A program made the position numbers and the translations under genes. Shown in pieces: positions 32,014 through 50,966 of a stretch of DNA of 64,000 bases. This DNA is from Patescibacteria group bacterium. Lineage in GTDB: Bacteria; Patescibacteriota; Patescibacteriia; UBA1558; GWA2-36-10. How positions within the stretch are numbered: position 1 is the first letter of the stretch; each line of letters begins with the position of its first letter. The notes beneath the pieces were generated by a model. That model saw only the letters and a list, made by a program, of their open reading frames with translations, was not told the origin of the DNA and did no database searches. Location: positions 238,886 to 302,885 of the forward strand of contig JBAZKN010000001.1 in assembly GCA_041650755.1 (NCBI GenBank), given 5' to 3'.

Positions 32014-32015
32014 AA

Positions 32016-34617: not shown

Positions 34618-34631
34618 CTTTAGGATAACAA

Positions 34632-35443: not shown

Positions 35444-35470
35444 TATAACAGAAATGCTAAAAAAAATCAA
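35442..35470 (-). promoter_or_regulatory. Putative promoter of the 16-gene minus-strand glycan operon: -35 TTGATT, 17-nt spacer, extended -10 TGTTATAAT
   Basis: Minus-strand TGTTATAAT is the RC of plus attataaca at 35442-35450. It lies ~84 nt upstream of the ATG at 35351. Confidence 0.4.
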
Positions 35471-35500
35471 TAAATAATTTATCTAAAATTAGCCAAAAAT

Positions 35501-36697
35501 ATGCCCGAATTAGAAGCTCATAAACTACAAAATAAGAAGATCCTCTATCTGGTAACCCAAACCAAATGGGGTGGCGCACAAAAATATGTGCTCCAATTAG
35601 CCAAATATTTCAGCCAAAATAACCAGGTAACTATTGCTTTTGGCGAGGATGGCGGCCTTGACCCGCAATTTTTGGATGCCTGCCGGGCAATGAATATACG
35701 CACCATTACCCTCAAAAATCTGGTGCGCGAAATAAACATCCCCAAAGAAATGGCAGCCATCAAAGAATTGGCTAAAATATTAAACAAAGAAAACTACCAC
35801 CTGATTCATCTCAACAGTTCAAAAGCCGGCTTGATAGGCAGCTTGGCAGCCAAGCTGTATGCCAGCAATCCTTTTAATACCAAATTGCGCATTGTCTATA
35901 CCGCCCATGGTTTTGTATTTAATGAAAGGCTAAACCCTTGGATGAAAAAAATCTATGTCGCCTCAGAGACTTTCTCGGCCGGCCTGCAAAATCTGATCAT
36001 TGCCGTCTCTGAATATGACAAGCGGACTGCTCTAGCCAACAAAATTTGCCCGGCCTACAAAATCTTTGTGGTGCCCAACGGCATTGATCCGGCAGATTAT
36101 CATTTTTTGGATACCGACTCTGCCCGACAAGCGCTGCATTTGGCGCCAAATAAAAAATATTTCGGCACCATTGCCAGTTTTTATGCTAACAAAGGATACA
36201 CTTATCTGCTTGAGGCTATAAAAATCTTGCAAGACAAAAATTCTCCCCTGCTGAAAAATTGCTCTTGGGTTTTTATCGGCGATGGTCCAGAATTGGAAAA
36301 TATAAAAAAACAAATAGCCGCTGCCCATTTAGAAAATTTTATAACTATCATTGGAGCCAAAGACCAAGCCTGGCAATACTTATCAGCTTTTGATTATTTT
36401 ATCCTACCATCTATCAAAGAGGGTATGCCTTATACTATTTTGGAAGCCGGCTTGGCCAGAGTGCCGATTATAGCTAGTCGGGTGGGCGGCATACCGGAAA
36501 TTATTGATGACCAAAAAACCGGCTTGCTTACTTTGCCGGCCAATCCCCTGTCCTTAATTGAGGCCATGGAAAAAATAAGCGGCCATCCTTCTTTTGCCAA
36601 GCAACTGGCTCACCATAACTATCAAAATATTATCAGTCGCTTTTCTCTGAAAAAAACTTTGACCAGCACTGAAGACTTGTACCTAAAATTATTTTAG
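35501..36697 (+). CDS. Glycosyltransferase family 4
   Basis: GTIASFYANKGYTYLLEA...EAGLARVPIIASRVGGIPE. Confidence 0.75.
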   Translation: MPELEAHKLQNKKILYLVTQTKWGGAQKYVLQLAKYFSQNNQVTIAFGEDGGLDPQFLDACRAMNIRTITLKNLVREINIPKEMAAIKELAKILNKENYHLIHLNSSKAGLIGSLAAKLYASNPFNTKLRIVYTAHGFVFNERLNPWMKKIYVASETFSAGLQNLIIAVSEYDKRTALANKICPAYKIFVVPNGIDPADYHFLDTDSARQALHLAPNKKYFGTIASFYANKGYTYLLEAIKILQDKNSPLLKNCSWVFIGDGPELENIKKQIAAAHLENFITIIGAKDQAWQYLSAFDYFILPSIKEGMPYTILEAGLARVPIIASRVGGIPEIIDDQKTGLLTLPANPLSLIEAMEKISGHPSFAKQLAHHNYQNIISRFSLKKTLTSTEDLYLKLF

Positions 36698-36706
36698 CCA
36701 AAAAAT

Positions 36707-38425: not shown

Positions 38426-38449
38426 TGCTTGATAAACAAGCTGATATAT

Positions 38450-40783
38450 TTAGTCAAGAGGAAAATTGTCCTTGCTGACCGTTTGTTTGACGTATTGGTT
38501 AGTCCTGACTTTTTCAATAAATTTCACAGCCTCCGTTTCATAATTGCCGCCAAATTTTTTGATTTGCCCGGCAATAGCAATTGCTTTATCTTTTTCGCCA
38601 ATATTGGCATAAGACAAAGCCAAACTGATCCAGTATTCCGGATTATCCTGATAGTTTTGAGTCAGCAAAGAATAAAAGTTGACTGCCCAGGAAAAATTAT
38701 CAGCATAGACAGCTGAATTGGCCAGACGATTCAATGTTTTCTCCTTTTTATAATCAATCCCCAAAGCATCCATTTGATCAATATAGCTCTGGATTTTTTC
38801 CGGCATATCCCCCGGCAAAAGTGCCATAACCATATTAACATAAGATTCGTCTGTGTATGGATTTAGATCAATGGCTTTTTGAAAATTAGCCAGCAGCTTA
38901 TCCTGATAAATTTTGGCTTCGCCAATTTTCCCCTGCTCTTTCATCCATAAATATAGGTAAAGCTCGCCATAGCCCATTTCATAATAAAACTGCTGCCTGG
39001 TAGGGCTATATTTTATGGCTTCCTGACCGAGCTTATCTACTTCGTACAAACGATTAACGTCCAAAATATAGGTATAATTATAATGCCTCATAGCCAACAA
39101 ATAATTGGCTGCATCAAATGGGTCGGCTTGCTGGCGCTGTTTAAGCAGAGCATCTATCTTTTCCGTGTATTGCATGGCTACGTAGGGCGTAACTTTTTTA
39201 TTTATCAATAAATGATTAGAAAATTCTACCAGCTGACGCAAAAATTCATTACTACCGGAACTATGGTAATTCATGGCCTTAATAAAAGTCTGAAAAGATT
39301 TGTCAGTATCCACCGCCTCAAGGCGCAAAGCTTGGATAAAAGTAAGGTTGGCCTTGGTCTCGCGCCAGTTCACAAAATACATAATTGGAACAAAGGCCAA
39401 TAAATAAACGATAAAAGAAATTAGAACAATTTTATTATTGCGATAAGCCCGGCGCGGCTCAATATATTTCTGGGCCACCATGGCTAATAATAGTAGGAGC
39501 GGCAAATAAGTCACCAATGCTTCAAACACAACTAGGCCTTGTATAACAAAGGCTAGCGCCATCAAAAATAAAATTTGCTGGCTAAGCACGGCTTGCCAGG
39601 GCTCGCCCTTATCAAGCTGCAGCACTTTGCGGCCCAAAATATACAAAGGGCCAAGGATCAAAAATAAATACAATATAAAGCCCACCAAGCCGCCAGTCAC
39701 CAAGTGATCCAAAAATATATTGTGCGCCCGATCAAACCAGATGATCGCTCCGGCATGAGCAAAAATATTCGGATTATAATATTTATTAAAAACTCTATAA
39801 AAATTTTCCGCTCCCCAGCCAAAAATTGGTTTTTCTTTAAAGCCTTGCCAAGCCGATCCCCAAGCCATAAAACGAGTTTGCATGGTGCGCTCACCTAGGG
39901 ATATACTTGTCAAACGTGTCAGAGCAGTGCTATTTTGCACCCAAGGCTGACCTTTGTTTATATAAGCAAAAGACAAAAACCCCACAAAGATAAGGCCTAA
40001 AATTAGCAAACTATACTTAATTTTTTTCTGCGGCAAACGTAATAGATTGTAGACTATAAATACTAAAATACTAACCAGCAAAGCAATCAAAGCTCCCCTG
40101 GTGCCAGATTGAAAAATAATAAATATATCCAAAAGAATCCCCAAAATATAATAAATGCTCAAATAACGCGATTTTCTTTGCAGGGCCAAATAGGCGCCGG
40201 CAAAAACAGCAAACAGTAAATAACCGGCCGTATAGGCGGCATTGCCTATAGTTGAGGCTACCCTGTCATTGGAAATCAAAGATGATTTGTTTATCAGATC
40301 TATACCCAAATACTGCAAAAAGCCAAAAACAGCAACCACTTGCGCTGCCAAGAAAAAAATATCCCACAATACAGACCACTCTTTTTTGCTGTTTATAAAA
40401 TTGCGCAAAACCAAAAACCAGATAAATAAATGCAGCCAGAGCAAAAGCCCCTCGCTCCTCTCGGTATTGCTCCAAAAGCTAAAATAAAAATTTCCCCCAA
40501 TAAGAGAAGAAACAAACAGGCTGACAAGAAACAAGGCAAAGACAATGCTTAGCCAGTCAACTTTTAGCAGGCTGTCTTTGCGCAAATACCATCTCGCTAG
40601 CCATAAAAGCAATAAAAGTTCCGTCAGTATGCGAAAAACTATAGCTTTGCTGGAAATAAAGGGAAACAATAAATCACTGTTGACATAAGTAGGCACCAAC
40701 ATTATTAAACCCAAAACTACCCAAATAGCGCCGTCTATAAATTTTAGTTTTGACATTCTGTTATTATTTAAAACTTGGATCAA
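38450..40783 (-). CDS. O-antigen ligase / Wzy_C family membrane protein with C-terminal TPR region (paralog 3)
   Basis: SGTRGALIALLVSILV...RAHNIFLDHLVTGGLVGF (H-N-x9-G-xx-G), followed by a TPR-rich C-terminal half. Confidence 0.7.
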   Translation of the reverse strand: MIQVLNNNRMSKLKFIDGAIWVVLGLIMLVPTYVNSDLLFPFISSKAIVFRILTELLLLLWLARWYLRKDSLLKVDWLSIVFALFLVSLFVSSLIGGNFYFSFWSNTERSEGLLLWLHLFIWFLVLRNFINSKKEWSVLWDIFFLAAQVVAVFGFLQYLGIDLINKSSLISNDRVASTIGNAAYTAGYLLFAVFAGAYLALQRKSRYLSIYYILGILLDIFIIFQSGTRGALIALLVSILVFIVYNLLRLPQKKIKYSLLILGLIFVGFLSFAYINKGQPWVQNSTALTRLTSISLGERTMQTRFMAWGSAWQGFKEKPIFGWGAENFYRVFNKYYNPNIFAHAGAIIWFDRAHNIFLDHLVTGGLVGFILYLFLILGPLYILGRKVLQLDKGEPWQAVLSQQILFLMALAFVIQGLVVFEALVTYLPLLLLLAMVAQKYIEPRRAYRNNKIVLISFIVYLLAFVPIMYFVNWRETKANLTFIQALRLEAVDTDKSFQTFIKAMNYHSSGSNEFLRQLVEFSNHLLINKKVTPYVAMQYTEKIDALLKQRQQADPFDAANYLLAMRHYNYTYILDVNRLYEVDKLGQEAIKYSPTRQQFYYEMGYGELYLYLWMKEQGKIGEAKIYQDKLLANFQKAIDLNPYTDESYVNMVMALLPGDMPEKIQSYIDQMDALGIDYKKEKTLNRLANSAVYADNFSWAVNFYSLLTQNYQDNPEYWISLALSYANIGEKDKAIAIAGQIKKFGGNYETEAVKFIEKVRTNQYVKQTVSKDNFPLD

Positions 40784-41444
40784 TAGCTAATAATTTTTCT
40801 TTATACATAGCGGACTTTTCCGGATCGCTATCAGCAAAAAAAGTATACAAATATTGGTAAAATTGCCTTTGCTCCACATTGCCAGCCTTAGCTACACCCT
40901 CTAGCATTATGGCTTCTACTTTGCCGGGGTTAGCCGGCAAATAACCAGCCGTATAAAGCTCAGCATAAGATTGATAGTCAAAAAAATAGCCAATATTATC
41001 TATCTGAATTGTCTTGTCATAATAATAGACGGATTTTTCATAATCATTGCCAAATACTTTATAATAATTGCCTAAATTGCTATAAGCCAAAGGTCGCTTG
41101 GGATTCAACACAATAGCATACTGCCAAGCTTCCACTGCGCCGGCATAATCCTTTAGGCCCAGCTTGGTGTTCCCAATATCTACCCAAATGTCATATTTAT
41201 CAAAATCAATGTTTTGGCGCAAATAATCATAGTCTTTATTTAAGCGAGTGACTAGATCGCCAAAAGCAGACTCTGGGTCTTTACTCACTTGGGGAAAATC
41301 ATCTAGCGTATAAACTTTGGTAATATCGGGTTGATTACTGACCGTTGATTGCTTGTCTTTTATAAAAAATCCCAGGCCAATAAGCAGGCCAATAACAACT
41401 ACCAAAATTATGATAAAAATAAATTTTTTTCGATTTAAATGCAT
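40764..41444 (-). CDS. Membrane-anchored TPR-repeat protein
   Basis: N-terminal TM segment FIFIIILVVVIGLLIGLGFF, then TPR-like repeats (AGAVEAWQYAIVLNP...). Confidence 0.55.
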   Translation of the reverse strand: MHLNRKKFIFIIILVVVIGLLIGLGFFIKDKQSTVSNQPDITKVYTLDDFPQVSKDPESAFGDLVTRLNKDYDYLRQNIDFDKYDIWVDIGNTKLGLKDYAGAVEAWQYAIVLNPKRPLAYSNLGNYYKVFGNDYEKSVYYYDKTIQIDNIGYFFDYQSYAELYTAGYLPANPGKVEAIMLEGVAKAGNVEQRQFYQYLYTFFADSDPEKSAMYKEKLLAIDPSFK

Positions 41445-41579: not shown

Positions 41580-44500
41580 TTAGCTTGACCAACCAATGAC
41601 GTAAGCTGTACCTGTGGTATTGGCACCCAAACCGGATACTAAGTAGCCGTTGTACCATTGACCATAGGCAGTAGCATTAGAGCCATCGGTAGCTAAGCCG
41701 CGGTTCTTGAAGTTATCTGACCAGACAAAGTTGCCTTGGTTCATAGTGCCCCAAGCATCAGCCAAGTTTTGGCCAGCAGCAGCTGGAGTACCAAAACTAG
41801 CGGCTGGTGTGGATGAAGCAGTATCACCCAACATAGAAACGCTCAAGTTATCACCAGTGCCAGCAGTAGCGATTGTACAATTCAACTTGTAAGTCATGCT
41901 AGCGCCCGGAGAAATCATCAAAGCCTCTTTGGTGTCACCAGCAGAAACAGTTGGATTATCAAAAACATAGCTGACATAACCTGCTGTAGTGGCATCAACA
42001 TCAGTTAAATTAGTGGAAGCACCAACTGTATTGCCCTCTGAGTCTTTAACATAACATGAAGAGACTGAGATGGCACCATCACCGCCAGTGGCAATCTCAA
42101 AGCTTGTTCTATAGAGCAAGACTTCCGAGCCATTGGCATCGGCCGCTACCTTATAGGCAAAGACGTCAGATGCGCCATTGACCATAGCAGTAGCCGCACC
42201 CAAAACATTGCCAGACTGTGAATAAGTCACAGTTGGGATAGCCTTGTGAATTATCATGGATGATGTGGTTGAACCATTGTAGGTTTCAGTAGAGACAGTA
42301 GCGTTGGATGAATTACCGATTGCGGTAATACCATCTGTACCGCCAATACCAAACCTGACATCAGCCGCTGGAGTAGCTGGAGCATTGTCCAAGTTCTGGT
42401 TGATAGTACCGATATCAGCCTTGATGGTCAAGATCTTTGACTGATCTTGTTGAACAGTCAAGACGCCGCGATCAAGGTTGAAAGTAATATAACCATTAGA
42501 TGAGACAGGACCGCTGGCAATCACCTTGGTGCCATCATAGACATAAAGTTGAGTTACGTCTTGATAGTTACCAGTAGCTGTGCCGGTCAAGCCGCCATCA
42601 GTCGTGAAGATTTTCAAAACTGTCACATCAATTGGCTCATATTGGGCATCCAATTTGATGGAGCCAAAAGTTACGCCAGTTGCACCAGCGCGCACAAAGC
42701 CGTTAGTTGGATTATTAGAGGTGCTGATAGTGATTGAACCACCGGCTGAGTAGGTCAAAACTGCGCCGTTATCAGCTGTCAAAGCCAAAGTAGCGCGATT
42801 GCCTGTGCTCACACCATAGGCCAATACTGAAGCATTGGCTGTGGTATTGGTATCAGTCAAACCAAATTCAGATGACTGATTGGTGGTAGCAGCACTGTTG
42901 ATATCACCAACTAATTGGATGGTCCTGTTAGTACCCTTGGTGATGATAATTGGATCATCAAAGGCAAAGGTTGAAGACTGGCCATCGCCGGCTGTCGGAG
43001 CATCATTGATTGGGCTCTTGGCTACGCCGCCGCTGCCATAAACACCATCATAAACTGTCAAGTTTGACACTTCGGTTGAAGAAGCGGCAAAGACCAATGA
43101 AGTTATTCTGATGTTTTCGCCAGAATTGGTAGCATCAAAGTTCCATGAACCCAATAATACGTCCTGGGCGCCTTTGATGACATTGTTGCTGGATGGCAAA
43201 GTATTGCGGGTAACTGTCAAGTATGCGGCTTTGACAGTCTGGGTGTTGGTGTCTATCTGTGAAGCAGTAGTCGGGGTAATAGCATCACCAGTTGTCTGAC
43301 CAGTAGCAATGATCTTGCTAGCTGGAGTATTCAAAGAGGCATAAATAGTGTCATTGGTTGCCCAACCACCATTAGTAGACAAATTACCAACTACCTTAAC
43401 CACTGTATCACCCACCGGCAAAGTAAAGGTATCGGTGAATGGTACGGTCAAAGCAGTCAAATCAGTTGGACCAGCCAAGGTTTTGCCATTGGCGTCAACC
43501 AACTTAACAGCCTGCAAAGCATCTTCGATCTGACTGCCAGATGAAGAAGTAATGGTCAAAGTCAAAGCAGTCACATCAATTGGCTCACCTTTGACAGTGA
43601 ATTTGAAAGCACCCAAGGTTTGATCGTTGCCAACAGTGATGTTGGTAGCGGTGACCGTGTTGCTTCTTTCAACAGTCATAGTACCACTGGAAATGGTGGC
43701 TGTATTGCCCCAGAACACCGGATTGGTGGTAGCTGAAGCAGAAGTGCCAGTGCCAGAAGTTGTCGGGGTGATATTATAGCCATAGGTTTGGCCTTGGACC
43801 AAAATATCAGTGCGGCGATAAAAGCCGACCTGAACAGTTCTGGCTGAACCACTCTCAACATCAGCCCTTATCTGGAATTGATAGGTTTGACCTTTAGGAA
43901 TGGTCAAAGGTGAAGTCAAGATAAAGTTGATGTATTTGCTATTGCTAGTATCGACAACACCATCAGCTATTTTGGTACCGTCTCTCAATAGTTCCCAATT
44001 GTTCAAATCACTGGTCAAAGAAGCAGTGCCAATCTGATAAGCTGACATTTGCTTCAAAGTCACATCTTCAGCTGAACCAGCCTGGATTTGGAAAGCGGTA
44101 AAAGTATAGTCAGTCTTACCAACTTCCAAAGCAGTGGAGGTAGCGTTTAGATATGAACCACGAGAAACAGTGGCTGAACCAATGGTGATAGTGGCATTCA
44201 ATGTCTGGGTATTGCCATAAATTGGCAAGGTGCCAGACACAGTGCCGCCGCCAGTCAAGGTGATAGATGACACACCCAAAGCTGGGGCTTCACCAGCATA
44301 GTCGGTCAAGGTACCCATATTACCAGACAAGATCAAATACTTGGTAGTATTGGCTGGAATGGTAATATCTTTGGTAAAGGTAGCTTCATGGTTAGAATTG
44401 AAAGTTTTGGAATTAGTATCAAGCGGTAAATTTGTGCTAGCATCCAAAACATCAACGCTAGAGAAAGCGCCGTCCTGACCAATGCCGCCTCGTTTGACAA

Positions 44501-45344
44501 TCATGGTGTCAATAGTAGCGGCTTGGCTGCCAGTAGTCACTGCCAATTTGGTAAATGGAGCTCTGGCTGAATTGCTGACTACCATACCAGAAGCTGGGGT
44601 ATCAGCAGCCAAAGAAACGGTCACACCACCAGTATTGCCAGGAGTGGGTGTTGAGCTGGTCAAACCGGCCAAAGCACTCTCCTTGCTGGTGATAGAAGTA
44701 CCGTCAGTGTAGGCAGACAAATCTGTGACAGTGATCACATCGGCAGTGTTGAAATTGTTATCAGCAAAGCCGGTTCCGGCAAATGGTCTCTTGGTTGAAC
44801 CATCAATATAATAAGTGGTTGAACCAGATTTAACCAGAGTACCAGTTGGGTACGTGCTGGATAAATCAGTACCTACAGTATAGGTAGAAGAGAAAAAGCC
44901 AGGGATCACATCATAGACTTTTTTGGCCCAATCGCTGCCATACAAAGTAGAAGCGGTGCTTGCATCTGGAATCCAGCGGATCACACTATTTGGTTCCACT
45001 GCGTAGATTTTTGCAGTGTTCATGTGTGTGACCAGCTTGGTGCCAGGGCGAAGACCGACAGCACCACCATCAGGATATTTATCCAACTCAGTCACTGGAA
45101 CTCTGACTACTTTGTCAAAGTTTGTGTACCAAGTGAAATATTCCTTGGTGCTGGGGAAAACCTTCTTAGTGCCATTGTCCATAACAATATAGACAGCTGC
45201 ACCTTTCTGACCTTGCAATGCCAACAATGAGCCGGCTGGGTAACTACCAGCAGCTTGGGCAGTAGATACAAAACCTGCACCCACTGACCAAAGAATGGTG
45301 GTCATTACCACAGCGGAGGTAAAAATTTTCTTGAGTAAACTCAT
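41580..45344 (-). CDS. Large secreted cell-surface protein (1254 aa), S-layer/adhesin-like, T/S/G/A/N-rich
   Basis: Signal peptide MSLLKKIFTSAVVMTTILWSVGAGFVSTAQA|AG. Long low-complexity beta-rich repeats. Aromatic-rich C-terminus (YGQWYNGYLVSGL...YVIGWSS). Confidence 0.6.
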   Translation of the reverse strand: MSLLKKIFTSAVVMTTILWSVGAGFVSTAQAAGSYPAGSLLALQGQKGAAVYIVMDNGTKKVFPSTKEYFTWYTNFDKVVRVPVTELDKYPDGGAVGLRPGTKLVTHMNTAKIYAVEPNSVIRWIPDASTASTLYGSDWAKKVYDVIPGFFSSTYTVGTDLSSTYPTGTLVKSGSTTYYIDGSTKRPFAGTGFADNNFNTADVITVTDLSAYTDGTSITSKESALAGLTSSTPTPGNTGGVTVSLAADTPASGMVVSNSARAPFTKLAVTTGSQAATIDTMIVKRGGIGQDGAFSSVDVLDASTNLPLDTNSKTFNSNHEATFTKDITIPANTTKYLILSGNMGTLTDYAGEAPALGVSSITLTGGGTVSGTLPIYGNTQTLNATITIGSATVSRGSYLNATSTALEVGKTDYTFTAFQIQAGSAEDVTLKQMSAYQIGTASLTSDLNNWELLRDGTKIADGVVDTSNSKYINFILTSPLTIPKGQTYQFQIRADVESGSARTVQVGFYRRTDILVQGQTYGYNITPTTSGTGTSASATTNPVFWGNTATISSGTMTVERSNTVTATNITVGNDQTLGAFKFTVKGEPIDVTALTLTITSSSGSQIEDALQAVKLVDANGKTLAGPTDLTALTVPFTDTFTLPVGDTVVKVVGNLSTNGGWATNDTIYASLNTPASKIIATGQTTGDAITPTTASQIDTNTQTVKAAYLTVTRNTLPSSNNVIKGAQDVLLGSWNFDATNSGENIRITSLVFAASSTEVSNLTVYDGVYGSGGVAKSPINDAPTAGDGQSSTFAFDDPIIITKGTNRTIQLVGDINSAATTNQSSEFGLTDTNTTANASVLAYGVSTGNRATLALTADNGAVLTYSAGGSITISTSNNPTNGFVRAGATGVTFGSIKLDAQYEPIDVTVLKIFTTDGGLTGTATGNYQDVTQLYVYDGTKVIASGPVSSNGYITFNLDRGVLTVQQDQSKILTIKADIGTINQNLDNAPATPAADVRFGIGGTDGITAIGNSSNATVSTETYNGSTTSSMIIHKAIPTVTYSQSGNVLGAATAMVNGASDVFAYKVAADANGSEVLLYRTSFEIATGGDGAISVSSCYVKDSEGNTVGASTNLTDVDATTAGYVSYVFDNPTVSAGDTKEALMISPGASMTYKLNCTIATAGTGDNLSVSMLGDTASSTPAASFGTPAAAGQNLADAWGTMNQGNFVWSDNFKNRGLATDGSNATAYGQWYNGYLVSGLGANTTGTAYVIGWSS

Positions 45345-45387
45345 GTTTGATTTTAATTAATCAATGCTCTTTACGATATCAATTTAG

Positions 45388-45439
45388 CCATCATGATAGG
45401 GCACCCCGCTCAGCGGAGCTAAAAAACTATCATCCTGGT
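45388..45439 (-). promoter_or_regulatory. Imperfect 12-bp inverted repeat enclosing a small CCGC-TCA-GCGG hairpin, in the leader/upstream region of the surface-protein gene
   Basis: ccatcatgatag (45388-45399) pairs with ctatcatcctgg (45428-45439) at 10 of 12 positions. The inner hairpin is at 45406-45416. Confidence 0.3.
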
Positions 45440-45748
45440 CATCCACTCTTTCGAGGCCGACCTTTCTGATAAGCCAAGTAATAGGCTCTATCAAATGATC
45501 TAAATGATAAACTATAAAGAACACCTAATTAGATACTCTCTCTGCCGTACGGACATCGAGAGCTTCCCTAAAGTCGCGCGCGATTTAGCGATAAGTTAGG
45601 GACAACAACAACTAATTAATCATTACATAATTGTTAATTGTCTCAATTAAACAATTAACTATTAGTTACTATTGCCCATAACCTATCTGCGACTGACTAG
45701 GCCGCGTCGCACACTATTTGGGAAAAATTATTTTTTTAAAATAACTTT

Positions 45749-47077
45749 TTATTGAAAGAGCTCTGTTTCTGTATTCTCTGGCATGATAATGCCTTCCTCT
45801 GCTTTAATCTCCCGATTGATATCTTCGGTATCAGTAGTCGTCTCACTGGATGATTTTATCGGCTGACCTATCGGCAAACTTCTAGTGGAAGAGGCATTGA
45901 CAGGCGGTGTACTGGTGGAATTCTTATTATCTTTGGGTTCATCAGCCTGATTTTCGATATTTTTCAAAACTGTTTCTGTGGCTTGGGTCTTTTCTTTGAC
46001 TTCCACTATCTTATTTAAAGTGTCTTTAAAGGCGCCCTTGTCCAGTAGCTCCTTAGCTTCATTCAAACCAGCTTGGGCCTCTGCCGGGCTTTTCTTGATA
46101 TTGTCGATACTTTGGGCATCAACGCCGGATTTTTCGTCTACAATCTGGACTTTATCTTTTACGCCCTGCACTTCTGAAGATAAATCTTGGATAGCAGAGT
46201 CAAGCATCTTAGAAACCGCCTCTTGGACAGCCTTTACTTCTTGAGAGCTTGGATTATTATCGTCAATTTTGACTGTGGTGCTGGCTGGGGTGTTAATTGG
46301 AGCCTGCCCGCCGTCTTGCTGGGCTACTGCCTTGGCAACCACCTCTTCATGAACCTCTAGAGCCAGGGAAACAGCTGAAGTCTTGACATCATCATTCACT
46401 TGCTTGGCGTTATCCAAAGCCTCTTCAATAACTTTATCTTGAGAATCATTGGCTTTGGCAGCCAAAGTAGAAGCAGTCTCTTTGGTGGCGTTGGTGACTT
46501 TTTCTGCCAAGGCAACGACTGCTATCGGATCTTTCTCACCTGTCTCTTTGACTACCCGCAAAGTAGTATTGGCGGCTACCACGTCTTTTTCTAAATGACT
46601 GACTGCCTGCTTAATGGCCTTTTCTTTTTGCACATCAGCCGCAGAATTATTATTGTCAGTAGTTTCACTCAAAATCTTGTCTATCTCATCCAAACGCTTA
46701 CCAGCATGCTTGATGTGTAGTTCGGTTTCTTTTACCGGCCCCCAGGCCAAGGCCAACTCCCCTTTCTCTAAACCGCGCTTGAGTGACCAAAGCGTATCAC
46801 CCGGCACAGCTGCTTGAGCAACTACGCCAAGACCAGAACCAATGGACAAAACCAAAAAAACAGCGATTGCTTTGGTCGCCTGCGACATCAATCTCACGCC
46901 CAAGCGCATGCCGAATATGTCCAATTTTTCAGCAGAAGTCAAACTTTGGGCCTTCATCAACTTATTTTGAACATAAATTTCTGACAATAAGTTGTATTTG
47001 GTAGTTCGGACCCACTTTTTTTCTGGCTGCAATTCTGGCAAATACTTGAGGTGGGATAATTTTTTTCTTAGACTCAT
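45749..47077 (-). CDS. Single-pass membrane protein downstream of ECF sigma; putative anti-sigma factor (DUF5667-like), coiled-coil-rich
   Basis: ~68-aa cytoplasmic N-terminus, a TM segment AIAVFLVLSIGSGLGVVAQAA, then ...PGDTLWSLKRGLEKGELALA..., and a long K/E/A/V-rich extracellular region. Gap to the sigma gene is 5 nt. Confidence 0.45.
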   Translation of the reverse strand: MSLRKKLSHLKYLPELQPEKKWVRTTKYNLLSEIYVQNKLMKAQSLTSAEKLDIFGMRLGVRLMSQATKAIAVFLVLSIGSGLGVVAQAAVPGDTLWSLKRGLEKGELALAWGPVKETELHIKHAGKRLDEIDKILSETTDNNNSAADVQKEKAIKQAVSHLEKDVVAANTTLRVVKETGEKDPIAVVALAEKVTNATKETASTLAAKANDSQDKVIEEALDNAKQVNDDVKTSAVSLALEVHEEVVAKAVAQQDGGQAPINTPASTTVKIDDNNPSSQEVKAVQEAVSKMLDSAIQDLSSEVQGVKDKVQIVDEKSGVDAQSIDNIKKSPAEAQAGLNEAKELLDKGAFKDTLNKIVEVKEKTQATETVLKNIENQADEPKDNKNSTSTPPVNASSTRSLPIGQPIKSSSETTTDTEDINREIKAEEGIIMPENTETELFQ

Positions 47078-47082: not shown

Positions 47083-47634
47083 TTATTGATTGATAGTCAA
47101 GCTTTTTAGCTTGGCTAAAGCGCGATGCAAGAGAACGCGCACATTATTTTTATCTTTTTGCAGAATACCGGCTATATCTTCGATGGACAAATCTTCCACA
47201 AAGCGTAAGAGCAAAACTTCTTGGTATTCTGGTTTTAAATTACGCAATAGTTTGAGCAGAGTCTCGGTGTCCATGGACTTATCTAGAGTAGCCGCTTTAT
47301 CGTCCGCTGGCTCCTGGCTCTCATCCAAATATTCCAGAGGCAGCTCTTGGCGATATGATTTGCGATAATAATCCACTACTGAATTTCTGGCAATGCGGAA
47401 AATAAAGGCGGAAAAGCTGCGAATATCTTTTTTATCAACCAGGTGCTGCCAAATCTTCAAAAATATATCTTGGGTAAGGTCCTCGGCCACCTGCTTATCA
47501 GAAACCTTGATAAAGACAAAACGATATATCCGATCTACATATTGGTCATAAAAAAAAGAAAAAGCGTCTGAATCACCGGATTTTAGCCGCAAAAAAGCTA
47601 TCTTTTCTTGTAAGTTGCTCCTTAAACTATTCAT
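47083..47634 (-). CDS. ECF-type RNA polymerase sigma factor (sigma-70 regions 2 and 4)
   Basis: Region 2 is RIYRFVFIKVSDKQVAEDLTQDIFLKIW. Region 4 HTH is LSIEDIAGILQKDKNNVRVLLHRALAKLK. Confidence 0.85.
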   Translation of the reverse strand: MNSLRSNLQEKIAFLRLKSGDSDAFSFFYDQYVDRIYRFVFIKVSDKQVAEDLTQDIFLKIWQHLVDKKDIRSFSAFIFRIARNSVVDYYRKSYRQELPLEYLDESQEPADDKAATLDKSMDTETLLKLLRNLKPEYQEVLLLRFVEDLSIEDIAGILQKDKNNVRVLLHRALAKLKSLTINQ

Positions 47635-47732
47635 AAATATAGACGCAAATAGTACCTAAATATTACACTAATAAAAACAAAAATATGCCAATATAATGAC
47701 TATTATTATAAATTGAATAAATAATTTATCAA

Positions 47733-47760
47733 ATTATAACATTTTAATTTTAATTTGTAA
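47733..47760 (-). promoter_or_regulatory. Putative promoter of the ECF sigma gene: -35 TTACAA, 16-nt spacer, extended -10 TGTTATAAT
   Basis: Minus-strand TGTTATAAT is the RC of plus attataaca at 47733-47741. It lies ~92 nt upstream of the ATG at 47634. Confidence 0.25.
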
Positions 47761-47868
47761 ACCCCGCTAGAGGTGCCCTGTAAAATATAAATGGTAGTTG
47801 ATGGTTTAAATTTATTTTCAAATTGTTTTTTATATTAATTTTGACAACTTTGGCACCTCTAGCGGGGT
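47761..47868. repeat. 17-bp perfect inverted repeat (ACCCCGCTAGAGGTGCC / GGCACCTCTAGCGGGGT) flanking a 74-bp AT-rich spacer
   Basis: Arms at 47761-47777 and 47852-47868. The spacer contains a TTGACA at 47841-47846. It lies in the divergent sigma/HTH intergenic region. Confidence 0.6.
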
Positions 47869-48039
47869 GAACCCATAAAATTGCATATTAAACCCCTACT
47901 TGATAGCTGTCTTTGAGCTTGATTTCTGTACTGCCCATGATTATACCATCCCCATTATATAAAGCAAAAAATACCCAGCACATACCAAAATAAAGCCAAA
48001 AAATGCCCTACTTTAAACATATAAAAGTTATCCACTTTT

Positions 48040-48068
48040 TTGACAAAATATATCGGAAGGTGTAGAAT
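48040..48068 (+). promoter_or_regulatory. Near-consensus sigma70 promoter TTGACA-N17-TAGAAT; the predicted TSS is ~6 nt before the ATG, so the mRNA is essentially leaderless
   Basis: TTGACA at 48040-48045, TAGAAT at 48063-48068, ATG at 48082. Confidence 0.55.
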
Positions 48069-48081: not shown

Positions 48082-48381
48082 ATGCAAAAAAATATGGAAA
48101 ATATCCTACGCCTATCAGTGTCTGAAGCAGCTAAGCTATTTGGCGTTTCTTCCAAAACTATACGCCAAGCCATTAAGGATGAGGAGTTAAAATACATTGT
48201 GGTAAAAGGCAGGTACAAAATAAACTTTTCTTCCCTGATTGACTGGTCACAAAAATCTACTCGCCGCGCCAATCTGCTGAAAAACTCCGGCCTGGGTCAA
48301 TATGTGGAGCAGTGGAAAATACGCAACAAAAAATACAGCCCCAGTCCAGAATTATTAAAAGATAAAGAAAAACCCTCCTAA
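48082..48381 (+). CDS. Small helix-turn-helix DNA-binding protein (excisionase/MerR-like HTH_17 type), 99 aa
   Basis: LSVSEAAKLFGVSSKTIRQAIKDEELKYIVVKGRYKI matches the 'excisionase family DNA binding domain' pattern. It is a lone plus-strand gene with a basic C-terminus. Confidence 0.55.
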   Translation: MQKNMENILRLSVSEAAKLFGVSSKTIRQAIKDEELKYIVVKGRYKINFSSLIDWSQKSTRRANLLKNSGLGQYVEQWKIRNKKYSPSPELLKDKEKPS

Positions 48382-48400
48382 ATTAAAGGAAGGTTTTTTT
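48373..48400. terminator. Putative bidirectional intrinsic terminator between the convergent HTH and HtrA-like genes
   Basis: CCCTCC-taaattaaa-GGAAGG (5 of 6 bp) followed by T7. An A-tract lies upstream, which serves the minus strand. Confidence 0.35.
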
Positions 48401-48419: not shown

Positions 48420-49496
48420 TTACGGCTTGATTTCAAGATCCTGCTCTGTGCCTTGGCGATTAATTTTTAAGATAATCTTATCACCCGAGCGATAATTTTG
48501 CAGAATAGATGTTATTGTCCTGTCTTTGGAGATCACATCATTATTGACAGCTATTAGACGATCGCCAGCTTTTAGGCCAGCTTTGGCGGCCAAACTATTG
48601 GCTGTTAAGGGCTTGCCGTTTGGACCATATATCATATTACCTTTTTCTTCAAAGCCGGTATTATTTTCCAAATCAACATAAGCTATGCCCCAAGTCGTGC
48701 GACTGGTATTATTCAATAAATGCTTGACTGCTTGACGCAGATATTCAGACGGTAATAATAAGGTCTCTTGATTCAGTTGGTAGCCCATGCCTATCATATC
48801 GCCTTTAACGTTAAAATATGGGGCAGCCAAAATCCTAGTATTGCTGCCTGAAATCTGCAAATAATAATCAACGTTGTCAGTAGATAAATAAGGCGTCAAA
48901 GTATAGTGGGTACTAGCCACCAAAGCCGATTGAAAAGAATGGCCCAGGCTATTGGGAATATCTAGGTTGGTATATACTCTCTCACCGGGTTTAAGACCAT
49001 CAGCCAAAGGAAAATTGACAGGCTGCAAACCACTGGCCTCAATTTTTATAAAAACTGCGCCGGAAAATTTATCAACCCGAGTAGCTTTGACGTCGTAAGA
49101 CTCGCCGGCCAATAGCACCACCTCCTTACTGCCATCAATCACCTGATTAGTGGTCATCAGCCAACCATCTGAGGTCACAACCACTGCTGAACCTAAAAAA
49201 TCATTATTGGTATAGAGCGGTTCGCCTACCCCGGCTATGACTTTACTAGATCGATAAATGCCGGCAATACTTTTTTGATTGTTATCAGCCAAGTTTACTA
49301 AGGGCTGTTCGAGATTTATCTTTAAATCCGGCTGATTATTAAAAAAATTAAATTGAGTTGGCAAAAAAGTCCTACCCAATAAATACCCGCCCAAGCCAGC
49401 TACCAAACCAAAAAATATCGCCAATAATGAAAGGTTAAATAATGATGGTGGCCGATCAGTAGTTGGTCGGACAAAGTGTTCTCGCCTGTCTGACAT
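48420..49496 (-). CDS. HtrA/DegP-like PDZ-domain protein with apparently degenerate catalytic triad (pseudoprotease)
   Basis: N-terminal TM segment, a trypsin-fold region and a C-terminal PDZ domain (AGLKAGDRLIAVNNDVI). Aligned to the DegP motifs, TNNHVV reads TTNQVI (His to Gln), DIALIQI reads GAVFIKI (Asp to Gly), and GNSGGAL reads GSNTRIL (Ser to Asn). Confidence 0.6.
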   Translation of the reverse strand: MSDRREHFVRPTTDRPPSLFNLSLLAIFFGLVAGLGGYLLGRTFLPTQFNFFNNQPDLKINLEQPLVNLADNNQKSIAGIYRSSKVIAGVGEPLYTNNDFLGSAVVVTSDGWLMTTNQVIDGSKEVVLLAGESYDVKATRVDKFSGAVFIKIEASGLQPVNFPLADGLKPGERVYTNLDIPNSLGHSFQSALVASTHYTLTPYLSTDNVDYYLQISGSNTRILAAPYFNVKGDMIGMGYQLNQETLLLPSEYLRQAVKHLLNNTSRTTWGIAYVDLENNTGFEEKGNMIYGPNGKPLTANSLAAKAGLKAGDRLIAVNNDVISKDRTITSILQNYRSGDKIILKINRQGTEQDLEIKP

Positions 49497-49507: not shown

Positions 49508-50236
49508 TTATAAATTAAATAAAGAAGTAGCTAGTAGTACAATATTGGCTAGCATAAATAAGGTCAAAGACCCCAAAAAATGCGGCCCAGCTTCTACTAT
49601 ACTATCGGAAATAAAGAAAAACCACAAGCTAAGTAGGGCCCCGGCTACATAAAAATTCACTGGCAAAAAATATATGACAAGCACCAGCTGGAGCATGATA
49701 AAAAATAAAAGCAGCATATTGAGCCAGCGAGTATGCCAAGGCCCGGTCGACAAATCATAGCCCGATAATAATACAACCAGCAATAAAACCGCCGCGGAAT
49801 AATACATAGGTAAACCGACAAAAATAACTAGAGCATAGGCGCTACTAGATAAGAGCCAAAAATTGAAATAATACCAAAACCTCCTAAAGACAAGATAATC
49901 TTTTGATTGCCAGAGTAAGACATTACGAGAATATCTGATCACCAGAAACCAAACGGCCGACCAAAGGGCAGAAAAAACAAAAGCCAAAATATAGCGCCAA
50001 TGTTCGGTTTTTAGCAGCAGTAAAAATAAAAATTGCCCAAAATAACACCATAAAAAATTTAGCCACATACCCTTTAGTGACCACCACTGGCTTTTAGCTA
50101 TAAAACGACCAGTCAAAATAATCAATATAGCAGAAACAATGGCTATAATGCCAACGCCGCGTTGATAATAAAAAAACCACCACCACGAGGCTAAAAACCA
50201 AATCGAACTAATAAATGGCAATAAAACCTTAAACAT
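49508..50236 (-). CDS. Polytopic Trp-rich membrane protein, unknown function
   Basis: 242 aa with ~7 TMs. No recognisable motif. Confidence 0.45.
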   Translation of the reverse strand: MFKVLLPFISSIWFLASWWWFFYYQRGVGIIAIVSAILIILTGRFIAKSQWWSLKGMWLNFLWCYFGQFLFLLLLKTEHWRYILAFVFSALWSAVWFLVIRYSRNVLLWQSKDYLVFRRFWYYFNFWLLSSSAYALVIFVGLPMYYSAAVLLLVVLLSGYDLSTGPWHTRWLNMLLLFFIMLQLVLVIYFLPVNFYVAGALLSLWFFFISDSIVEAGPHFLGSLTLFMLANIVLLATSLFNL

Positions 50237-50642
50237 CTTCAGCTAATATATTTTCTAATCTTTTTATCTCCGAATCTAGAGCTGGCATTTTTTCATCAGC
50301 TCTTTGCAAAAAATCACTAATCTGATTTTTGAGATCAGGATTCTTTGTTTTTAAATACTCCTGCCAAACATCAAAAGCTAAAAATAAATTCATGTGAGCA
50401 TCACCGACCGATTTATCGTGACTTTTTAAATATAGCAGTTTATCGTGAATATTGGCAATGTCTCGAGCTTGATATGTTTCAGTAACCGAACCCAACCAAG
50501 GCGACACAGTCTCAAGATACTCTCGTTCGTTGTTAATAATTTTTGTTTGATTGTGTAAATTATAAAATAAAATTAAAAAAATGGCTAATGTTAGCAAAAA
50601 AATAACAATAAACCACTTATTTTTCGCTAAAAATTCTTTCAT
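50229..50642 (-). CDS. Small membrane-anchored protein, unknown function
   Basis: N-terminal TM segment WFIVIFLLTLAIFLILFY, then a soluble helical domain. Confidence 0.4.
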   Translation of the reverse strand: MKEFLAKNKWFIVIFLLTLAIFLILFYNLHNQTKIINNEREYLETVSPWLGSVTETYQARDIANIHDKLLYLKSHDKSVGDAHMNLFLAFDVWQEYLKTKNPDLKNQISDFLQRADEKMPALDSEIKRLENILAEDV

Positions 50643-50645
50643 ATT

Positions 50646-50966
50646 CTATTTGAAAAAACCTGTCCCCTCTACTTTTAACCAATCGTCTCTATCCTCTGAC
50701 CATTGATAAACCTCTAGATGATGCACTTTGACTTCCGGATCATAAATATACTCGACTTTGACACCAGAGCCTATGCGATTTGAATATTGGGTTTTCTTAC
50801 CTAAGACTTTTGCTTGACTAAGTAGCTTTATTTTAATCTTGCCCATCGGCCCCACAAACTCAAGCACTTCGCTGGTACCAGAGTCAAGCTCTTCTTGATA
50901 TTCAGCTAAAACTGAAAATTTACTTTTAATTTCTGACTTTAAATCTGACCAACGTTCTGGTGTCAT
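50646..50966 (-). CDS. Hypothetical small protein (106 aa)
   Basis: ORF tightly packed in the operon (3-nt and 6-nt gaps). No motif recognised. Confidence 0.4.
   Translation of the reverse strand: MTPERWSDLKSEIKSKFSVLAEYQEELDSGTSEVLEFVGPMGKIKIKLLSQAKVLGKKTQYSNRIGSGVKVEYIYDPEVKVHHLEVYQWSEDRDDWLKVEGTGFFK

What the first reader, a model, noticed from the sequence alone, without database searches (positions are those of the whole stretch)
48420..49496. HtrA/DegP homolog with all three catalytic-triad positions apparently substituted (pseudoprotease with intact PDZ)
Aligned by eye to the DegP motifs, TNNHVV reads TTNQVI (His to Gln), DIALIQI reads GAVFIKI (Asp to Gly), and GNSGGAL reads GSNTRIL (Ser to Asn). 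The trypsin-fold scaffold, the N-terminal membrane anchor and the C-terminal PDZ domain are retained. A catalytically dead HtrA would act as a chaperone or substrate-binding adaptor rather than a protease. This is notable if it is the organism's only HtrA-like protein.
Basis: partly seen in the sequence, partly recalled or inferred. Interest (0 to 1): 0.5.

Follow-up and report, generated by a model that had tools for sequence, protein, structure and literature searches.

The report
Dead HtrA protease of Patescibacteria
This gene encodes a membrane-anchored relative of the HtrA/DegS quality-control proteases that has lost all three catalytic residues but keeps its peptide-binding PDZ domain, and it belongs to a large, strongly conserved and unstudied family in the tiny Patescibacteria (CPR), where it most likely binds envelope proteins rather than cutting them.

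Summary
ORF 48420-49496(-) encodes a 358-aa protein with a cytoplasmic tail, one TM helix, an HtrA-fold domain and one PDZ domain. Pairwise, multiple and profile alignments put Gln118, Gly146 and Leu223 at the His, Asp and Ser positions.

This is not decay. All 95 orthologs (43-82% identity) lack the triad, with Gln in 94. None of 133 more distant cluster representatives has H-D-S or GNSGG. dN/dS is 0.04-0.14, and the protease-like domain is as constrained as the PDZ. The PDZ carboxylate-binding loop is intact, and no alternative nucleophile is conserved.

The gene ends a tightly packed operon, p106-p137-mem242-pHtrA. It is always preceded by the polytopic membrane protein mem242. In most lineages a leaderless ECF sigma / DUF5667 anti-sigma pair and an S-layer-like protein follow it.

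My best reading is a binding-only envelope sensor or holdase. Coupling to the sigma pair is inferred only.

Dead HtrA homologs are already known (MamO, PflC, the RsgI9 sensor domain), so this is a new variant of a known kind and of moderate interest. Whether the genome also has an active HtrA could not be tested; the 64-kb window has none.

The parts
48420..49496 (-). pHtrA: CDS of the triad-less HtrA homolog (358 aa plus stop)
   Evidence: ORF. Identical protein P0001 is named 'S1C family serine protease [Patescibacteria group bacterium]'. HtrA homology.
49440..49496 (-). Cytoplasmic N-terminal tail, aa 1-19 (MSDRREHFVRPTTDRPPSL), carrying the ortholog-conserved motif HFxRPTxxRPPS
   Evidence: H7, F8, R10, P11, T12, P16 and P17 are >=95% conserved in 95 orthologs. 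Four Arg residues precede the TM helix, which by the positive-inside rule puts the tail in the cytoplasm (read from the sequence). The motif is not conserved in the wider superfamily.
49365..49439 (-). Single transmembrane helix, aa 20-44
   Evidence: The AlphaFold2 model has helix H20-44. The segment is hydrophobic.
49305..49364 (-). Flexible linker, aa 45-64
   Evidence: pLDDT is below 50 for residues 48-61, and conservation is low.
48711..49304 (-). Protease-like (chymotrypsin/HtrA-fold) domain without a catalytic triad, aa 65-262
49143..49145 (-). Codon of Gln118, at the catalytic His position
   Evidence: This column is Q in 94 and R in 1 of 95 orthologs.
49059..49061 (-). Codon of Gly146, at the catalytic Asp position
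   Evidence: The column reads G69 N13 R5 S3 H2 K2 Q1, with no Asp.
48828..48830 (-). Codon of Leu223, at the catalytic Ser position (GNSGGP aligns with RILAAP)
   Evidence: The column reads L48 A7 S7 K5 and others. No family member has a G[ND]SGG motif.
48423..48710 (-). PDZ domain, aa 263-358, with an intact carboxylate-binding loop R266-x-x-W269-G270-I-x-Y273
   Evidence: PDZ_2 and PDZ_6 match. In 133 distant representatives R266 is 76%, L/W269 83%, G270 100% and Y273 96% conserved, as in active HtrAs.
48368..48398 (-). Terminator-like hairpin (12 pairs plus a T run) directly after the pHtrA stop codon; marks the end of the operon
   Evidence: sequence.
49508..50236 (-). mem242: polytopic membrane protein with no known family; the gene immediately upstream of pHtrA in every lineage examined
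   Evidence: There is an 11-nt gap to pHtrA. Adjacency is kept in all subgroups, including L049-L051. No Pfam or NCBIfam hit. No conserved polar catalytic residues. The AlphaFold2 model predicts ten helices of at least 4 residues (nine of about 19-29 residues) but has low confidence, pLDDT 58.
50229..50642 (-). p137: bitopic membrane protein (N-terminal TM helix plus helical ectodomain); operon member
   Evidence: It overlaps mem242 by 8 nt. Conserved in most loci. No family hit.
50646..50966 (-). p106: small protein with no TM segment or signal peptide; first gene of the conserved four-gene set; conserved C-terminus ...W.K[LI][DE]....LF
   Evidence: The only family match is a weak DUF6449 hit, E 0.0012.
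48082..48381 (+). HTH_17 DNA-binding protein, transcribed divergently from the sigma gene and convergently with pHtrA (opposite strand, lying between the two)
   Evidence: HTH_17, E 1.4e-9. Present at this place in about 40 loci. A sigma-70-like promoter lies at 48040-48068.
47642..47667 (-). ECF-type promoter TGTAAT-N16-CGTC ending about 7 nt before the sigma start codon, which implies a leaderless and presumably autoregulated sigma gene
   Evidence: It is the only match in the window. It is conserved upstream of the sigma gene in 40 loci and absent upstream of the pHtrA operon.
47083..47634 (-). ECF sigma factor
   Evidence: Sigma70_r2 and r4_2 match. The best NCBIfam match is the BldN family at 138 bits, below its cut-off.
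45749..47077 (-). DUF5667 membrane protein, the presumed anti-sigma factor (5 nt downstream of the sigma gene)
   Evidence: DUF5667 match. Always follows the sigma gene. The anti-sigma role is inferred from position only.
41580..45344 (-). 1254-aa secreted Thr/Ser/Gly-rich protein (S-layer-like); conserved downstream neighbour
   Evidence: Signal peptide and composition are read from the translation. No Pfam, NCBIfam or PDB hit. Conserved in the loci.

Best explanation
The gene encodes a functional pseudoprotease. It is an HtrA/DegS-type protein, anchored in the membrane by one N-terminal helix, whose protease-fold domain and single PDZ domain face the outside of the cell. It can no longer cut peptide bonds.

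Shown: His, Asp, Ser and the GNSGG oxyanion loop are all replaced, here and throughout a large Patescibacteria family. The fold is kept. The PDZ carboxylate-binding loop is kept. All parts are under strong purifying selection.

Inferred mechanism: the protein works by binding. The PDZ groove, and possibly the remnant substrate cleft, capture exposed C-termini or unfolded stretches of exported envelope proteins. It acts as the ligand-binding subunit of a membrane complex with the protein made from the gene just upstream (mem242), and probably also with p137 and p106.

In most lineages the module sits next to an ECF sigma / DUF5667 anti-sigma pair and a large S-layer-like protein. I therefore take the most likely role to be a non-proteolytic envelope sensor that reports the state of exported surface protein to that anti-sigma factor. 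This would be DegS-like sensing with RseB-like gating, by occupancy rather than cleavage.

Probabilities:
- No serine-protease activity: about 0.9.
- Acts by PDZ/cleft binding together with mem242: about 0.6.
- Feeds into the neighbouring sigma/anti-sigma pair: about 0.35.
For: Triad loss:
- Three independent alignment methods agree.
- Among 95 orthologs the His column is Q in 94 and R in 1, with no His within +-3 columns.
- None of 133 distant 50%-cluster representatives has H-D-S or G[ND]SGG. About 190 clusters score E<=1e-30.

Selection: dN/dS is 0.04-0.14 in the tail plus TM, the protease-like domain and the PDZ alike.

Binding competence: the PDZ loop R-x-x-L/W-G-phi-x-Y is conserved as in active HtrAs. 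Positions conserved in the wide family are scaffold and PDZ residues only.

Complex with mem242: the gap is 11 nt or the genes overlap, and adjacency is kept in every subgroup down to 23-30% identity.

Sigma link:
- The order pHtrA - HTH_17(-) - ECF sigma - DUF5667 - big1254 is kept in about 40 loci.
- It is also kept in a subgroup with 28-30% identity where the upstream SecY-Adk-Map context is gone.
- The pHtrA operon lacks the ECF promoter, as expected for a constitutive sensor rather than a stress-induced chaperone.
Against: - No biochemical data exist for any member.
- In the most distant members (L049-L051) the sigma pair is not adjacent, whereas mem242 is. The sigma link may therefore be lineage-specific, or may reflect inherited gene order in genomes with very stable synteny.
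- No conserved C-terminal PDZ ligand was found in any module protein, including the anti-sigma candidate.
- The anti-sigma role of the DUF5667 protein rests on position alone.
- Residue-level structural superposition on DegS could not be done with these tools.
- Oligomeric state is unknown.
Confidence: 0.55

Rival explanations
1. A membrane-tethered holdase or assembly chaperone for newly exported surface proteins. The dead protease body and the PDZ domain hold unfolded S-layer-like or other large secreted proteins as they leave the Sec translocon. There is no signalling role.
For: - In the core family the gene ends the long operon rpl/rps - SecY - Adk - Map - RuvX - GT4 - DUF192 - p106 - p137 - mem242 - pHtrA.
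- Large secreted proteins are nearby: big1254 here, and a 757-aa Beta_propel protein inside the operon in L051.
- A surface-glycan island follows, with TPR, Wzy_C, PMT_2 and several glycosyltransferases.
- From general knowledge, DegP with its serine mutated keeps chaperone activity.
- The sigma pair is not adjacent in L049-L051.
Against: - This does not explain why adjacency to the sigma/anti-sigma pair is kept after the SecY context is lost.
- No client is identified and no conserved C-terminal ligand was found.
- This reading is not exclusive of the sensor model.
Confidence: 0.25
2. A non-catalytic activator or adaptor of a separate active protease or hydrolase. Examples of the partner would be an active HtrA paralog elsewhere in the genome or the protease that cleaves the anti-sigma factor. 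This parallels MamO, which promotes MamE activity.
For: - MamO's presence, but not its triad, is needed for MamE-dependent processing (PMC4794232).
- Canonical active HtrAs with GNSGG exist in Patescibacteria, for example P0106 from Candidatus Paceibacterota.
- HtrA proteins form mixed oligomers in some systems (general knowledge).
Against: - No active protease gene is found in the conserved module or in the 64-kb window.
- mem242 has no conserved catalytic-type residues.
- Co-occurrence with an active paralog could not be shown. P0106 lies on a contig of different composition from the pHtrA contig of the same sample.
Confidence: 0.12
3. A structural scaffold. The HtrA oligomerisation tendency is reused to build a lattice or ring in the envelope, as PflC does in the Campylobacter jejuni flagellar motor.
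For: - PflC is an HtrA homolog without a triad that forms the medial-disk lattice (PMC12222027).
- Here there is a conserved set of membrane partners and a neighbouring S-layer-like protein.
Against: - In PflC the catalytic region is atrophied and the His loop is lost. Here the whole fold and the PDZ peptide-binding loop are preserved as in active HtrAs.
- No evidence bears on oligomeric state.
Confidence: 0.06
4. The protein is still a protease and uses non-canonical catalytic residues.
For: - Ser, His and Asp residues exist elsewhere in the domain: S109, H197, D110, D142 and D210 are conserved in the close orthologs.
- Seven of 95 orthologs have Ser in the nucleophile column.
Against: - In the wide family H197 and D210 are not conserved.
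- S109, D110, G111 and D142 are also present in active HtrAs, where they are scaffold residues.
- No His lies within +-3 columns of the His position in any ortholog.
- The oxyanion loop GNSGG is gone in all members.
Confidence: 0.04
5. A decaying pseudogene, or an alignment or annotation artefact.
For: - The Pfam Trypsin_2 score is only just above threshold, 28.6 against 27.6.
- Most orthologs do not reach that threshold in the precomputed Pfam assignments.
Against: - The full-length ORF is intact in more than 95 orthologs.
- dN/dS is 0.04-0.14.
- The structure model is confident, pLDDT 86.5.
- Structural matches are highly significant.
Confidence: 0.01

Closest known systems
DegS (E. coli site-1 protease of the sigma-E envelope-stress pathway; HtrA family)
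   Different: There is no His-Asp-Ser triad and no GNSGG loop, so it cannot carry out site-1 cleavage. The score against the DegS model is 36 bits, with a cut-off of 423. The neighbouring anti-sigma candidate is a DUF5667 protein, not RseA. The organism has no outer membrane, so OMP C-termini cannot be the signal.
MamO (magnetosome HtrA-family pseudoprotease, Magnetospirillum)
   Different: MamO keeps His and Asp, has Thr at the nucleophile position, binds metal through a di-His motif, and lies in a magnetosome island next to the active paralog MamE. Here all three residues are replaced. No ectodomain His is conserved in the wide family. A PDZ domain is present and the context is SecY operon / ECF sigma / S-layer. 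The inactivation was independent.
PflC (Campylobacter jejuni flagellar medial-disk protein, HtrA homolog without a triad)
   Same: It is a bacterial extracytoplasmic HtrA homolog that lacks the catalytic triad and has been reused non-catalytically (PMC12222027).
   Different: PflC is soluble, has two PDZ-like domains, has lost the His-bearing loop and forms a lattice in a flagellar motor. The protein here is membrane-anchored, has one PDZ domain and keeps the complete fold with Gln in place of His. There is no flagellar context.
RsgI9 ectodomain (Clostridium thermocellum anti-sigma-I factor with an S1C protease-like sensor domain, PDB 7sjy)
   Different: In RsgI9 the S1C-like domain is fused to the anti-sigma factor itself and is paired with an NTF2 domain, not a PDZ. 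Here it is a separate polypeptide with its own membrane anchor and a PDZ domain, encoded next to an ECF-type (not SigI-type) sigma factor. Any link to the anti-sigma factor is inferred.
Canonical HtrA/DegP/DegQ and M. tuberculosis PepD/HtrA (active S1C proteases)
   Same: These are the best sequence and structure matches. The protease-PDZ order is shared. The M. tuberculosis sigE-rseA-htrA gene cluster is a known example of an HtrA gene kept beside an ECF sigma/anti-sigma pair (from memory, not tested here).
   Different: The catalytic triad and oxyanion loop are absent. The score is 59.8 bits against a cut-off of 416 for TIGR02037. Identity is only 20-25%.

Membership tests
HtrA/DegP/DegQ/DegS serine endopeptidases (MEROPS S1C; TIGR02037) | Chymotrypsin-fold protease domain | tested here: met
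HtrA/DegP/DegQ/DegS serine endopeptidases (MEROPS S1C; TIGR02037) | His-Asp-Ser catalytic triad in the TNxHV / DxAxLK / GNSGGP motifs | tested here: not met
   The three positions are Q118, G146 and L223 by pairwise, multiple and profile alignment. The triad is absent in all 95 orthologs and all 133 distant representatives.
HtrA/DegP/DegQ/DegS serine endopeptidases (MEROPS S1C; TIGR02037) | At least one C-terminal PDZ domain with a carboxylate-binding loop | tested here: met
   PDZ_2 and PDZ_6 score above cut-off. The loop R266..W269-G270 is conserved.
HtrA/DegP/DegQ/DegS serine endopeptidases (MEROPS S1C; TIGR02037) | Score above the curated family cut-off | tested here: not met
   TIGR02037 scores 59.8 bits against 416.2, and NF047968 scores 58.7 against 470.
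HtrA/DegP/DegQ/DegS serine endopeptidases (MEROPS S1C; TIGR02037) | Trimer-based oligomer and measurable proteolysis | not testable with these tools
   Only single-chain prediction is available, and there is no biochemistry.
DegS-type site-1 protease of an ECF sigma pathway | N-terminal membrane anchor plus protease domain plus a single PDZ | tested here: met
   The AlphaFold2 model has a helix at 20-44, the protease fold at 65-262 and a PDZ at 270-358. Pfam agrees.
DegS-type site-1 protease of an ECF sigma pathway | Catalytic cleavage of the anti-sigma factor (requires the triad) | tested here: not met
   The triad is absent. TIGR02038 scores 36.2 bits against 422.95.
DegS-type site-1 protease of an ECF sigma pathway | Functional link to an ECF sigma / membrane anti-sigma pair | tested here: inconclusive
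   The gene is adjacent to ECF sigma plus DUF5667 in about 40 of 52 loci, including a 28-30% identity subgroup. It is not adjacent in L049-L051. There is no RseA homolog.
MamO-type magnetosome pseudoprotease | Degenerate catalytic triad in an HtrA-fold domain | tested here: met
MamO-type magnetosome pseudoprotease | Surface di-histidine metal-binding motif, with the paralog MamE and a magnetosome island as context (PMC4794232) | tested here: not met
   No His of the ectodomain is conserved in the wide family. The context is the SecY operon and an ECF sigma, with no paralog in the window.
PflC-type flagellar scaffold | Soluble periplasmic protease:PDZ:PDZ protein with the His loop lost, part of a flagellar motor (PMC12222027) | tested here: not met
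   The protein has one PDZ domain and a membrane anchor. The strand that carries His is kept, with Gln in its place. No flagellar genes lie in the neighbourhood.
RsgI9-type anti-sigma factor with an S1C-like sensor domain | S1C-like domain fused in one chain to an N-terminal anti-sigma domain and an NTF2 domain | tested here: not met

The most novel reading that the evidence does not exclude
pHtrA, mem242, p137 and p106 form a trans-membrane complex specific to Patescibacteria. In it, a DegS-descended but non-proteolytic sensor reads the state of exported S-layer glycoprotein. It gates a new class of ECF anti-sigma factor (DUF5667) by occupancy instead of by site-1 cleavage. This would be an envelope-stress or surface-assembly pathway in which the initiating protease has been replaced by a binding-only module.
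Probability: 0.2. Interest if true: 0.65.

Novelty: new variant of a known kind. Interest (0 to 1): 0.4.

Why it matters
Patescibacteria (CPR) make up a large share of bacterial diversity, yet almost nothing is known about how they build and monitor their envelope.

This gene is currently named 'S1C family serine protease' in public annotation. That name implies an activity the whole family cannot have, so metabolic and proteostasis inventories of these organisms over-count proteases.

The family is a fourth, independently derived example of an HtrA scaffold reused without catalysis, after MamO, PflC and the RsgI9 sensor domain. It is the first to keep the full DegS-like architecture with a binding-competent PDZ domain.

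Its fixed partners are an uncharacterised polytopic membrane protein, an ECF sigma with a DUF5667 anti-sigma candidate, and an S-layer-like protein. Together they form a concrete, testable module for envelope sensing in organisms that cannot yet be manipulated genetically.

Tried and rejected
1. Alternative catalytic residues. I looked for any Ser, His, Asp or Lys conserved across the wide family. Only scaffold residues shared with active HtrAs, plus PDZ residues, are conserved. Rejected.

2. PDZ ligand within the module. I compared the C-termini of DUF5667, p106, p137, mem242, big1254 and p226 across loci. The anti-sigma C-terminus is not conserved. p106 has a conserved ...LF end but has no signal peptide or TM segment, so it is presumably cytoplasmic. 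No ligand was identified.

3. ECF promoter upstream of pHtrA. The motif TGTAAY-N15-18-CGTC is conserved before the sigma gene in 40 loci. It is absent upstream of p106, mem242, pHtrA and big1254. pHtrA is therefore not an evident regulon member.

4. Active paralog. There is none in the 64-kb window. The active HtrA P0106 occurs in the same two samples as ortholog P0037, but on a contig with 43% GC against 34% and a tetranucleotide correlation of 0.41, so it is a different genome. P0102 lies on a 2.4-kb contig and is uninformative.

5. Nature of mem242. Only 6 homologs were found by the word-indexed search. The AlphaFold2 model has pLDDT 58, too poor for a fold search. No conserved polar residues suggest an enzyme.

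6. The afdb50 fold library was not available.

7. The primary RsgI9 structure paper (PMC9177573) is not held. Whether RsgI9 keeps its triad was therefore not checked.

8. Literature searches for Patescibacteria or CPR with HtrA or PDZ, and for DUF5667, returned nothing relevant.

9. big1254 and the DUF5667 protein have no PDB sequence relatives.

10. Rfam and tRNA scans of the window found nothing.
Full report
**What is there.** The minus-strand ORF 48420-49496 encodes a 358-aa protein. Public collections hold it with identical sequence, named 'MAG: S1C family serine protease [Patescibacteria group bacterium]', on a 405-kb contig.

Pfam finds a Trypsin_2 domain at residues 102-237, just above threshold (28.6 bits against 27.6). 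It also finds a PDZ domain at residues 299-357. NCBIfam HtrA, DegP and DegS models match at E 2e-16 to 4e-9, but 7- to 12-fold below their trusted scores.

An AlphaFold2 model built on an 84-sequence alignment is confident, with pLDDT 86.5. It shows:
- a disordered 19-residue N-terminal tail;
- one long helix at residues 20-44;
- a low-confidence linker;
- a beta-rich protease-fold domain at residues 65-262;
- a PDZ domain at residues 270-358.

**The triad.** Three independent kinds of alignment agree:
- phmmer pairwise alignments to three solved HtrAs;
- MAFFT with 19-22 active HtrAs;
- a profile HMM built from 14 active HtrAs.

The serine was placed four residues too early: it corresponds to Leu223, not Asn219. 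Codon coordinates were verified.

**It is a family trait, not decay.** The word-indexed search returned 95 full-length orthologs at 43-82% identity, all about 360 aa and all from Patescibacteria where a source gives a name. Their columns read as follows:
- His position: Q in 94, R in 1.
- Asp position: G69 N13 R5 S3 H2 K2 Q1.
- Ser position: mostly Leu.
- No ortholog has a His within three columns of the His position.

A profile search of 1.84 billion cluster representatives found 190 clusters at E<=1e-30. Of the 133 full-length representatives listed, none has H-D-S or a G[ND]SGG motif. Eighty-five carry the hallmark SDGW.

Nei-Gojobori dN/dS on 25 ortholog pairs is 0.04-0.14. The protease-like domain (0.04-0.13) is as constrained as the PDZ domain.

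Across the wide family, the positions that stay conserved are those also conserved in active HtrAs (core glycines, D110-G111, D142, K151), the PDZ carboxylate-binding loop (R266, L/W269, G270 at 100%), and a few family-specific aromatics (W112, F149, Y273, Y335). No alternative nucleophile or general base is conserved. I conclude that this is a functional pseudoprotease with a binding-competent PDZ domain.

**Surroundings.** The gene is the last of a tightly packed run on the minus strand. Gaps or overlaps are at most 14 nt between each gene from Adk through pHtrA; SecY is separated from Adk by a 113-nt gap. The run is SecY, Adk, Map, RuvX, a GT4 (MraY/WecA-like) transferase, DUF192, p106, p137, mem242 and pHtrA. 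A 12-pair terminator hairpin follows directly at 48368-48398.

Downstream lie:
- a divergent HTH_17 gene (48082-48381, plus strand);
- an ECF sigma factor (47083-47634);
- a DUF5667 membrane protein that starts 5 nt after the sigma stop codon, the presumed anti-sigma factor;
- a 404-nt gap;
- a 1254-aa secreted Thr/Ser/Gly-rich protein that looks like an S-layer protein;
- TPR, Wzy_C, PMT_2, several GT1/GT4 glycosyltransferases, a methyltransferase and two B12-radical-SAM genes. This is a surface-glycan island.

In 52 related loci the order p106-(p137)-mem242-pHtrA-HTH_17(-)-sigma-DUF5667-big1254 is kept. The loci comprise 48 from GTDB species representatives plus four from assemblies.

The order persists in a subgroup whose pHtrA is only 28-30% identical and in which the SecY/Adk/Map context is gone. 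In the most distant members (L049-L051) the sigma pair is not adjacent, but mem242 still immediately precedes pHtrA. In L051 a 757-aa secreted beta-propeller protein sits inside the operon.

The tightest partner is therefore mem242. It is a polytopic membrane protein without any family assignment, without conserved polar catalytic residues, and with only a low-confidence model.

**Regulation.** A motif TGTAAY-N16-17-CGTCTA ends about 7 nt before the sigma start codon in 40 loci and in the window at 47642-47667. It is a typical ECF-type autoregulated promoter and implies a leaderless sigma mRNA. The motif does not occur upstream of p106, mem242, pHtrA or big1254. pHtrA is therefore not visibly part of the sigma regulon. 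It is expressed with housekeeping genes, which fits a resident sensor or handling factor better than a stress-induced chaperone.

**How it most likely works.**

Shown:
- an outward-facing, membrane-tethered HtrA fold without catalytic residues;
- an intact PDZ binding loop;
- strong selection;
- an obligatory neighbour, mem242;
- frequent adjacency to an ECF sigma/anti-sigma pair and to large secreted proteins.

Inferred: the protein binds exposed C-termini or unfolded segments of exported envelope proteins and acts within a membrane complex. I favour a sensor role feeding into the neighbouring anti-sigma factor, that is, DegS-like sensing with RseB-like gating. The DegS/RseA/RseB scheme is summarised in PMC8103513. 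I favour it for three reasons:
- The adjacency survives loss of all other context.
- The gene is not under the ECF promoter.

I put this specific link at about 0.35. The closely related holdase reading is at about 0.25. An adaptor role for another protease is at about 0.12, following the MamO/MamE precedent (PMC4794232).

**Comparison with known systems.** Catalytically dead HtrA homologs are documented:
- MamO binds metal and promotes MamE (PMC4794232).
- PflC is the lattice of the C. jejuni flagellar medial disk and lacks the triad (PMC12222027).
- The RsgI9 protease-like sensor domain is the third case.

The present family is a homolog of S1C proteases but fails the defining catalytic features and the curated score cut-offs. 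It should not be filed as a serine protease. It differs from MamO in having no di-His motif and no magnetosome context, and in having a PDZ domain. It differs from PflC in having a membrane anchor, one PDZ domain and a preserved fold. It differs from RsgI9 in being a separate polypeptide with a PDZ domain, encoded beside an ECF-type sigma factor.

I found no paper on this family.

**The paralog question.** No other HtrA-like ORF is in the window. Active HtrAs with GNSGG do occur in Patescibacteria (P0102, P0106, P0117). The one case where an active HtrA and a pHtrA ortholog share a sample turned out to involve different genomes. Whether this organism has an active HtrA remains open.

**Verdict.** The pseudoprotease interpretation is supported and extends to a large, old, selectively maintained Patescibacteria family with a conserved gene module. 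The concept is known and the function is unproven. I rate this a new variant of a known kind and of moderate interest.

Noticed in passing
window 45345-45748 (minus strand): The 404-nt gap between the DUF5667 gene and the 1254-aa S-layer-like gene is 356-680 nt in all 34 loci measured. In the 25 of these that were aligned it holds invariant blocks: ATAGGTTATGGG, TCCCTAACTTATCGCTAAATCGCGCGCGA..TTAGGG and CCAGAAAGGTCG. RNAalifold predicts 31 pairs, 16 of them with compensatory changes, including a long-range helix ATAGGTTATGGG/..CCCTAACTTAT. There is no Rfam, tRNA or tmRNA match. This may be an undescribed structured RNA or a long structured 5' leader of the surface-protein mRNA.
   Followed up: partly
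window 47642-47667 (minus strand); same place in 40 related loci: A conserved ECF-type promoter TGTAAY-N16-17-CGTCTA ends about 7 nt before the ATG of the ECF sigma gene. This implies a leaderless, autoregulated sigma transcript. It is the only match to the motif in the window.
   Followed up: yes
L001, L003, L005, L012 and others, about 45-60 nt upstream of the sigma -35 element; window 47749-47777 / 47852-47880: Many related loci carry the palindrome GGCTAATATTAGCC between the divergent HTH_17 and sigma genes, possibly the HTH_17 operator. The window lacks it at this place. It has instead a 29-nt inverted repeat with a 74-nt spacer.
   Followed up: partly
window 41580-45344 (minus strand): A 1254-aa protein with a signal peptide and a Thr/Ser/Gly/Ala-rich sequence, with no Pfam, NCBIfam or PDB relative. 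It is probably the S-layer or major surface protein. Its C-terminus ...GYLVSGLG..T.AY.IGWSS recurs in several lineages. GC content and GC skew rise over this gene.
   Followed up: partly
window 28403-41444: A surface-glycan or glycoprotein island follows the S-layer-like gene. It contains a TPR protein, a Wzy_C (O-antigen-ligase-like) protein of 777 aa, a PMT_2 glycosyltransferase, four GT1/GT4 transferases, a methyltransferase and two adjacent B12-binding radical-SAM genes at 30574-33461.
   Followed up: no
window 49508-50966 (minus strand): Three conserved genes with no family assignment precede pHtrA: p106, p137 and mem242. p106 has a conserved C-terminal ...W.K[LI][DE]....LF. p137 has a very weak resemblance to PspB, E 0.004. 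mem242 is conserved mainly in aromatic residues.
   Followed up: partly
L006, L008, L010, L015, L016 and about 12 further loci: Many third-party MAG records titled 'uncultured Gammaproteobacteria bacterium' carry this Patescibacteria-type locus with full synteny. The organism names of these records look wrong. L039, a 2.7-kb contig in a Prolixibacteraceae bin, looks like bin contamination.
   Followed up: no
L032, L033, L038 (bin LaPlata-b_bin-0293): One bin holds three copies of the pHtrA-sigma locus on three contigs. L032 and L033 are 93% identical with dS about 0.46. This suggests a mixture of related strains in the bin rather than paralogs.
   Followed up: no
window 48040-48068 (plus strand): A near-consensus sigma-70-type promoter (TTGACA-17-TAGAAT, 11 of 12 matches) ends 14 nt before the ATG of the HTH_17 gene. 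Two further near-consensus promoters lie upstream of the sigma gene at 47705-47761 on the minus strand.
   Followed up: no
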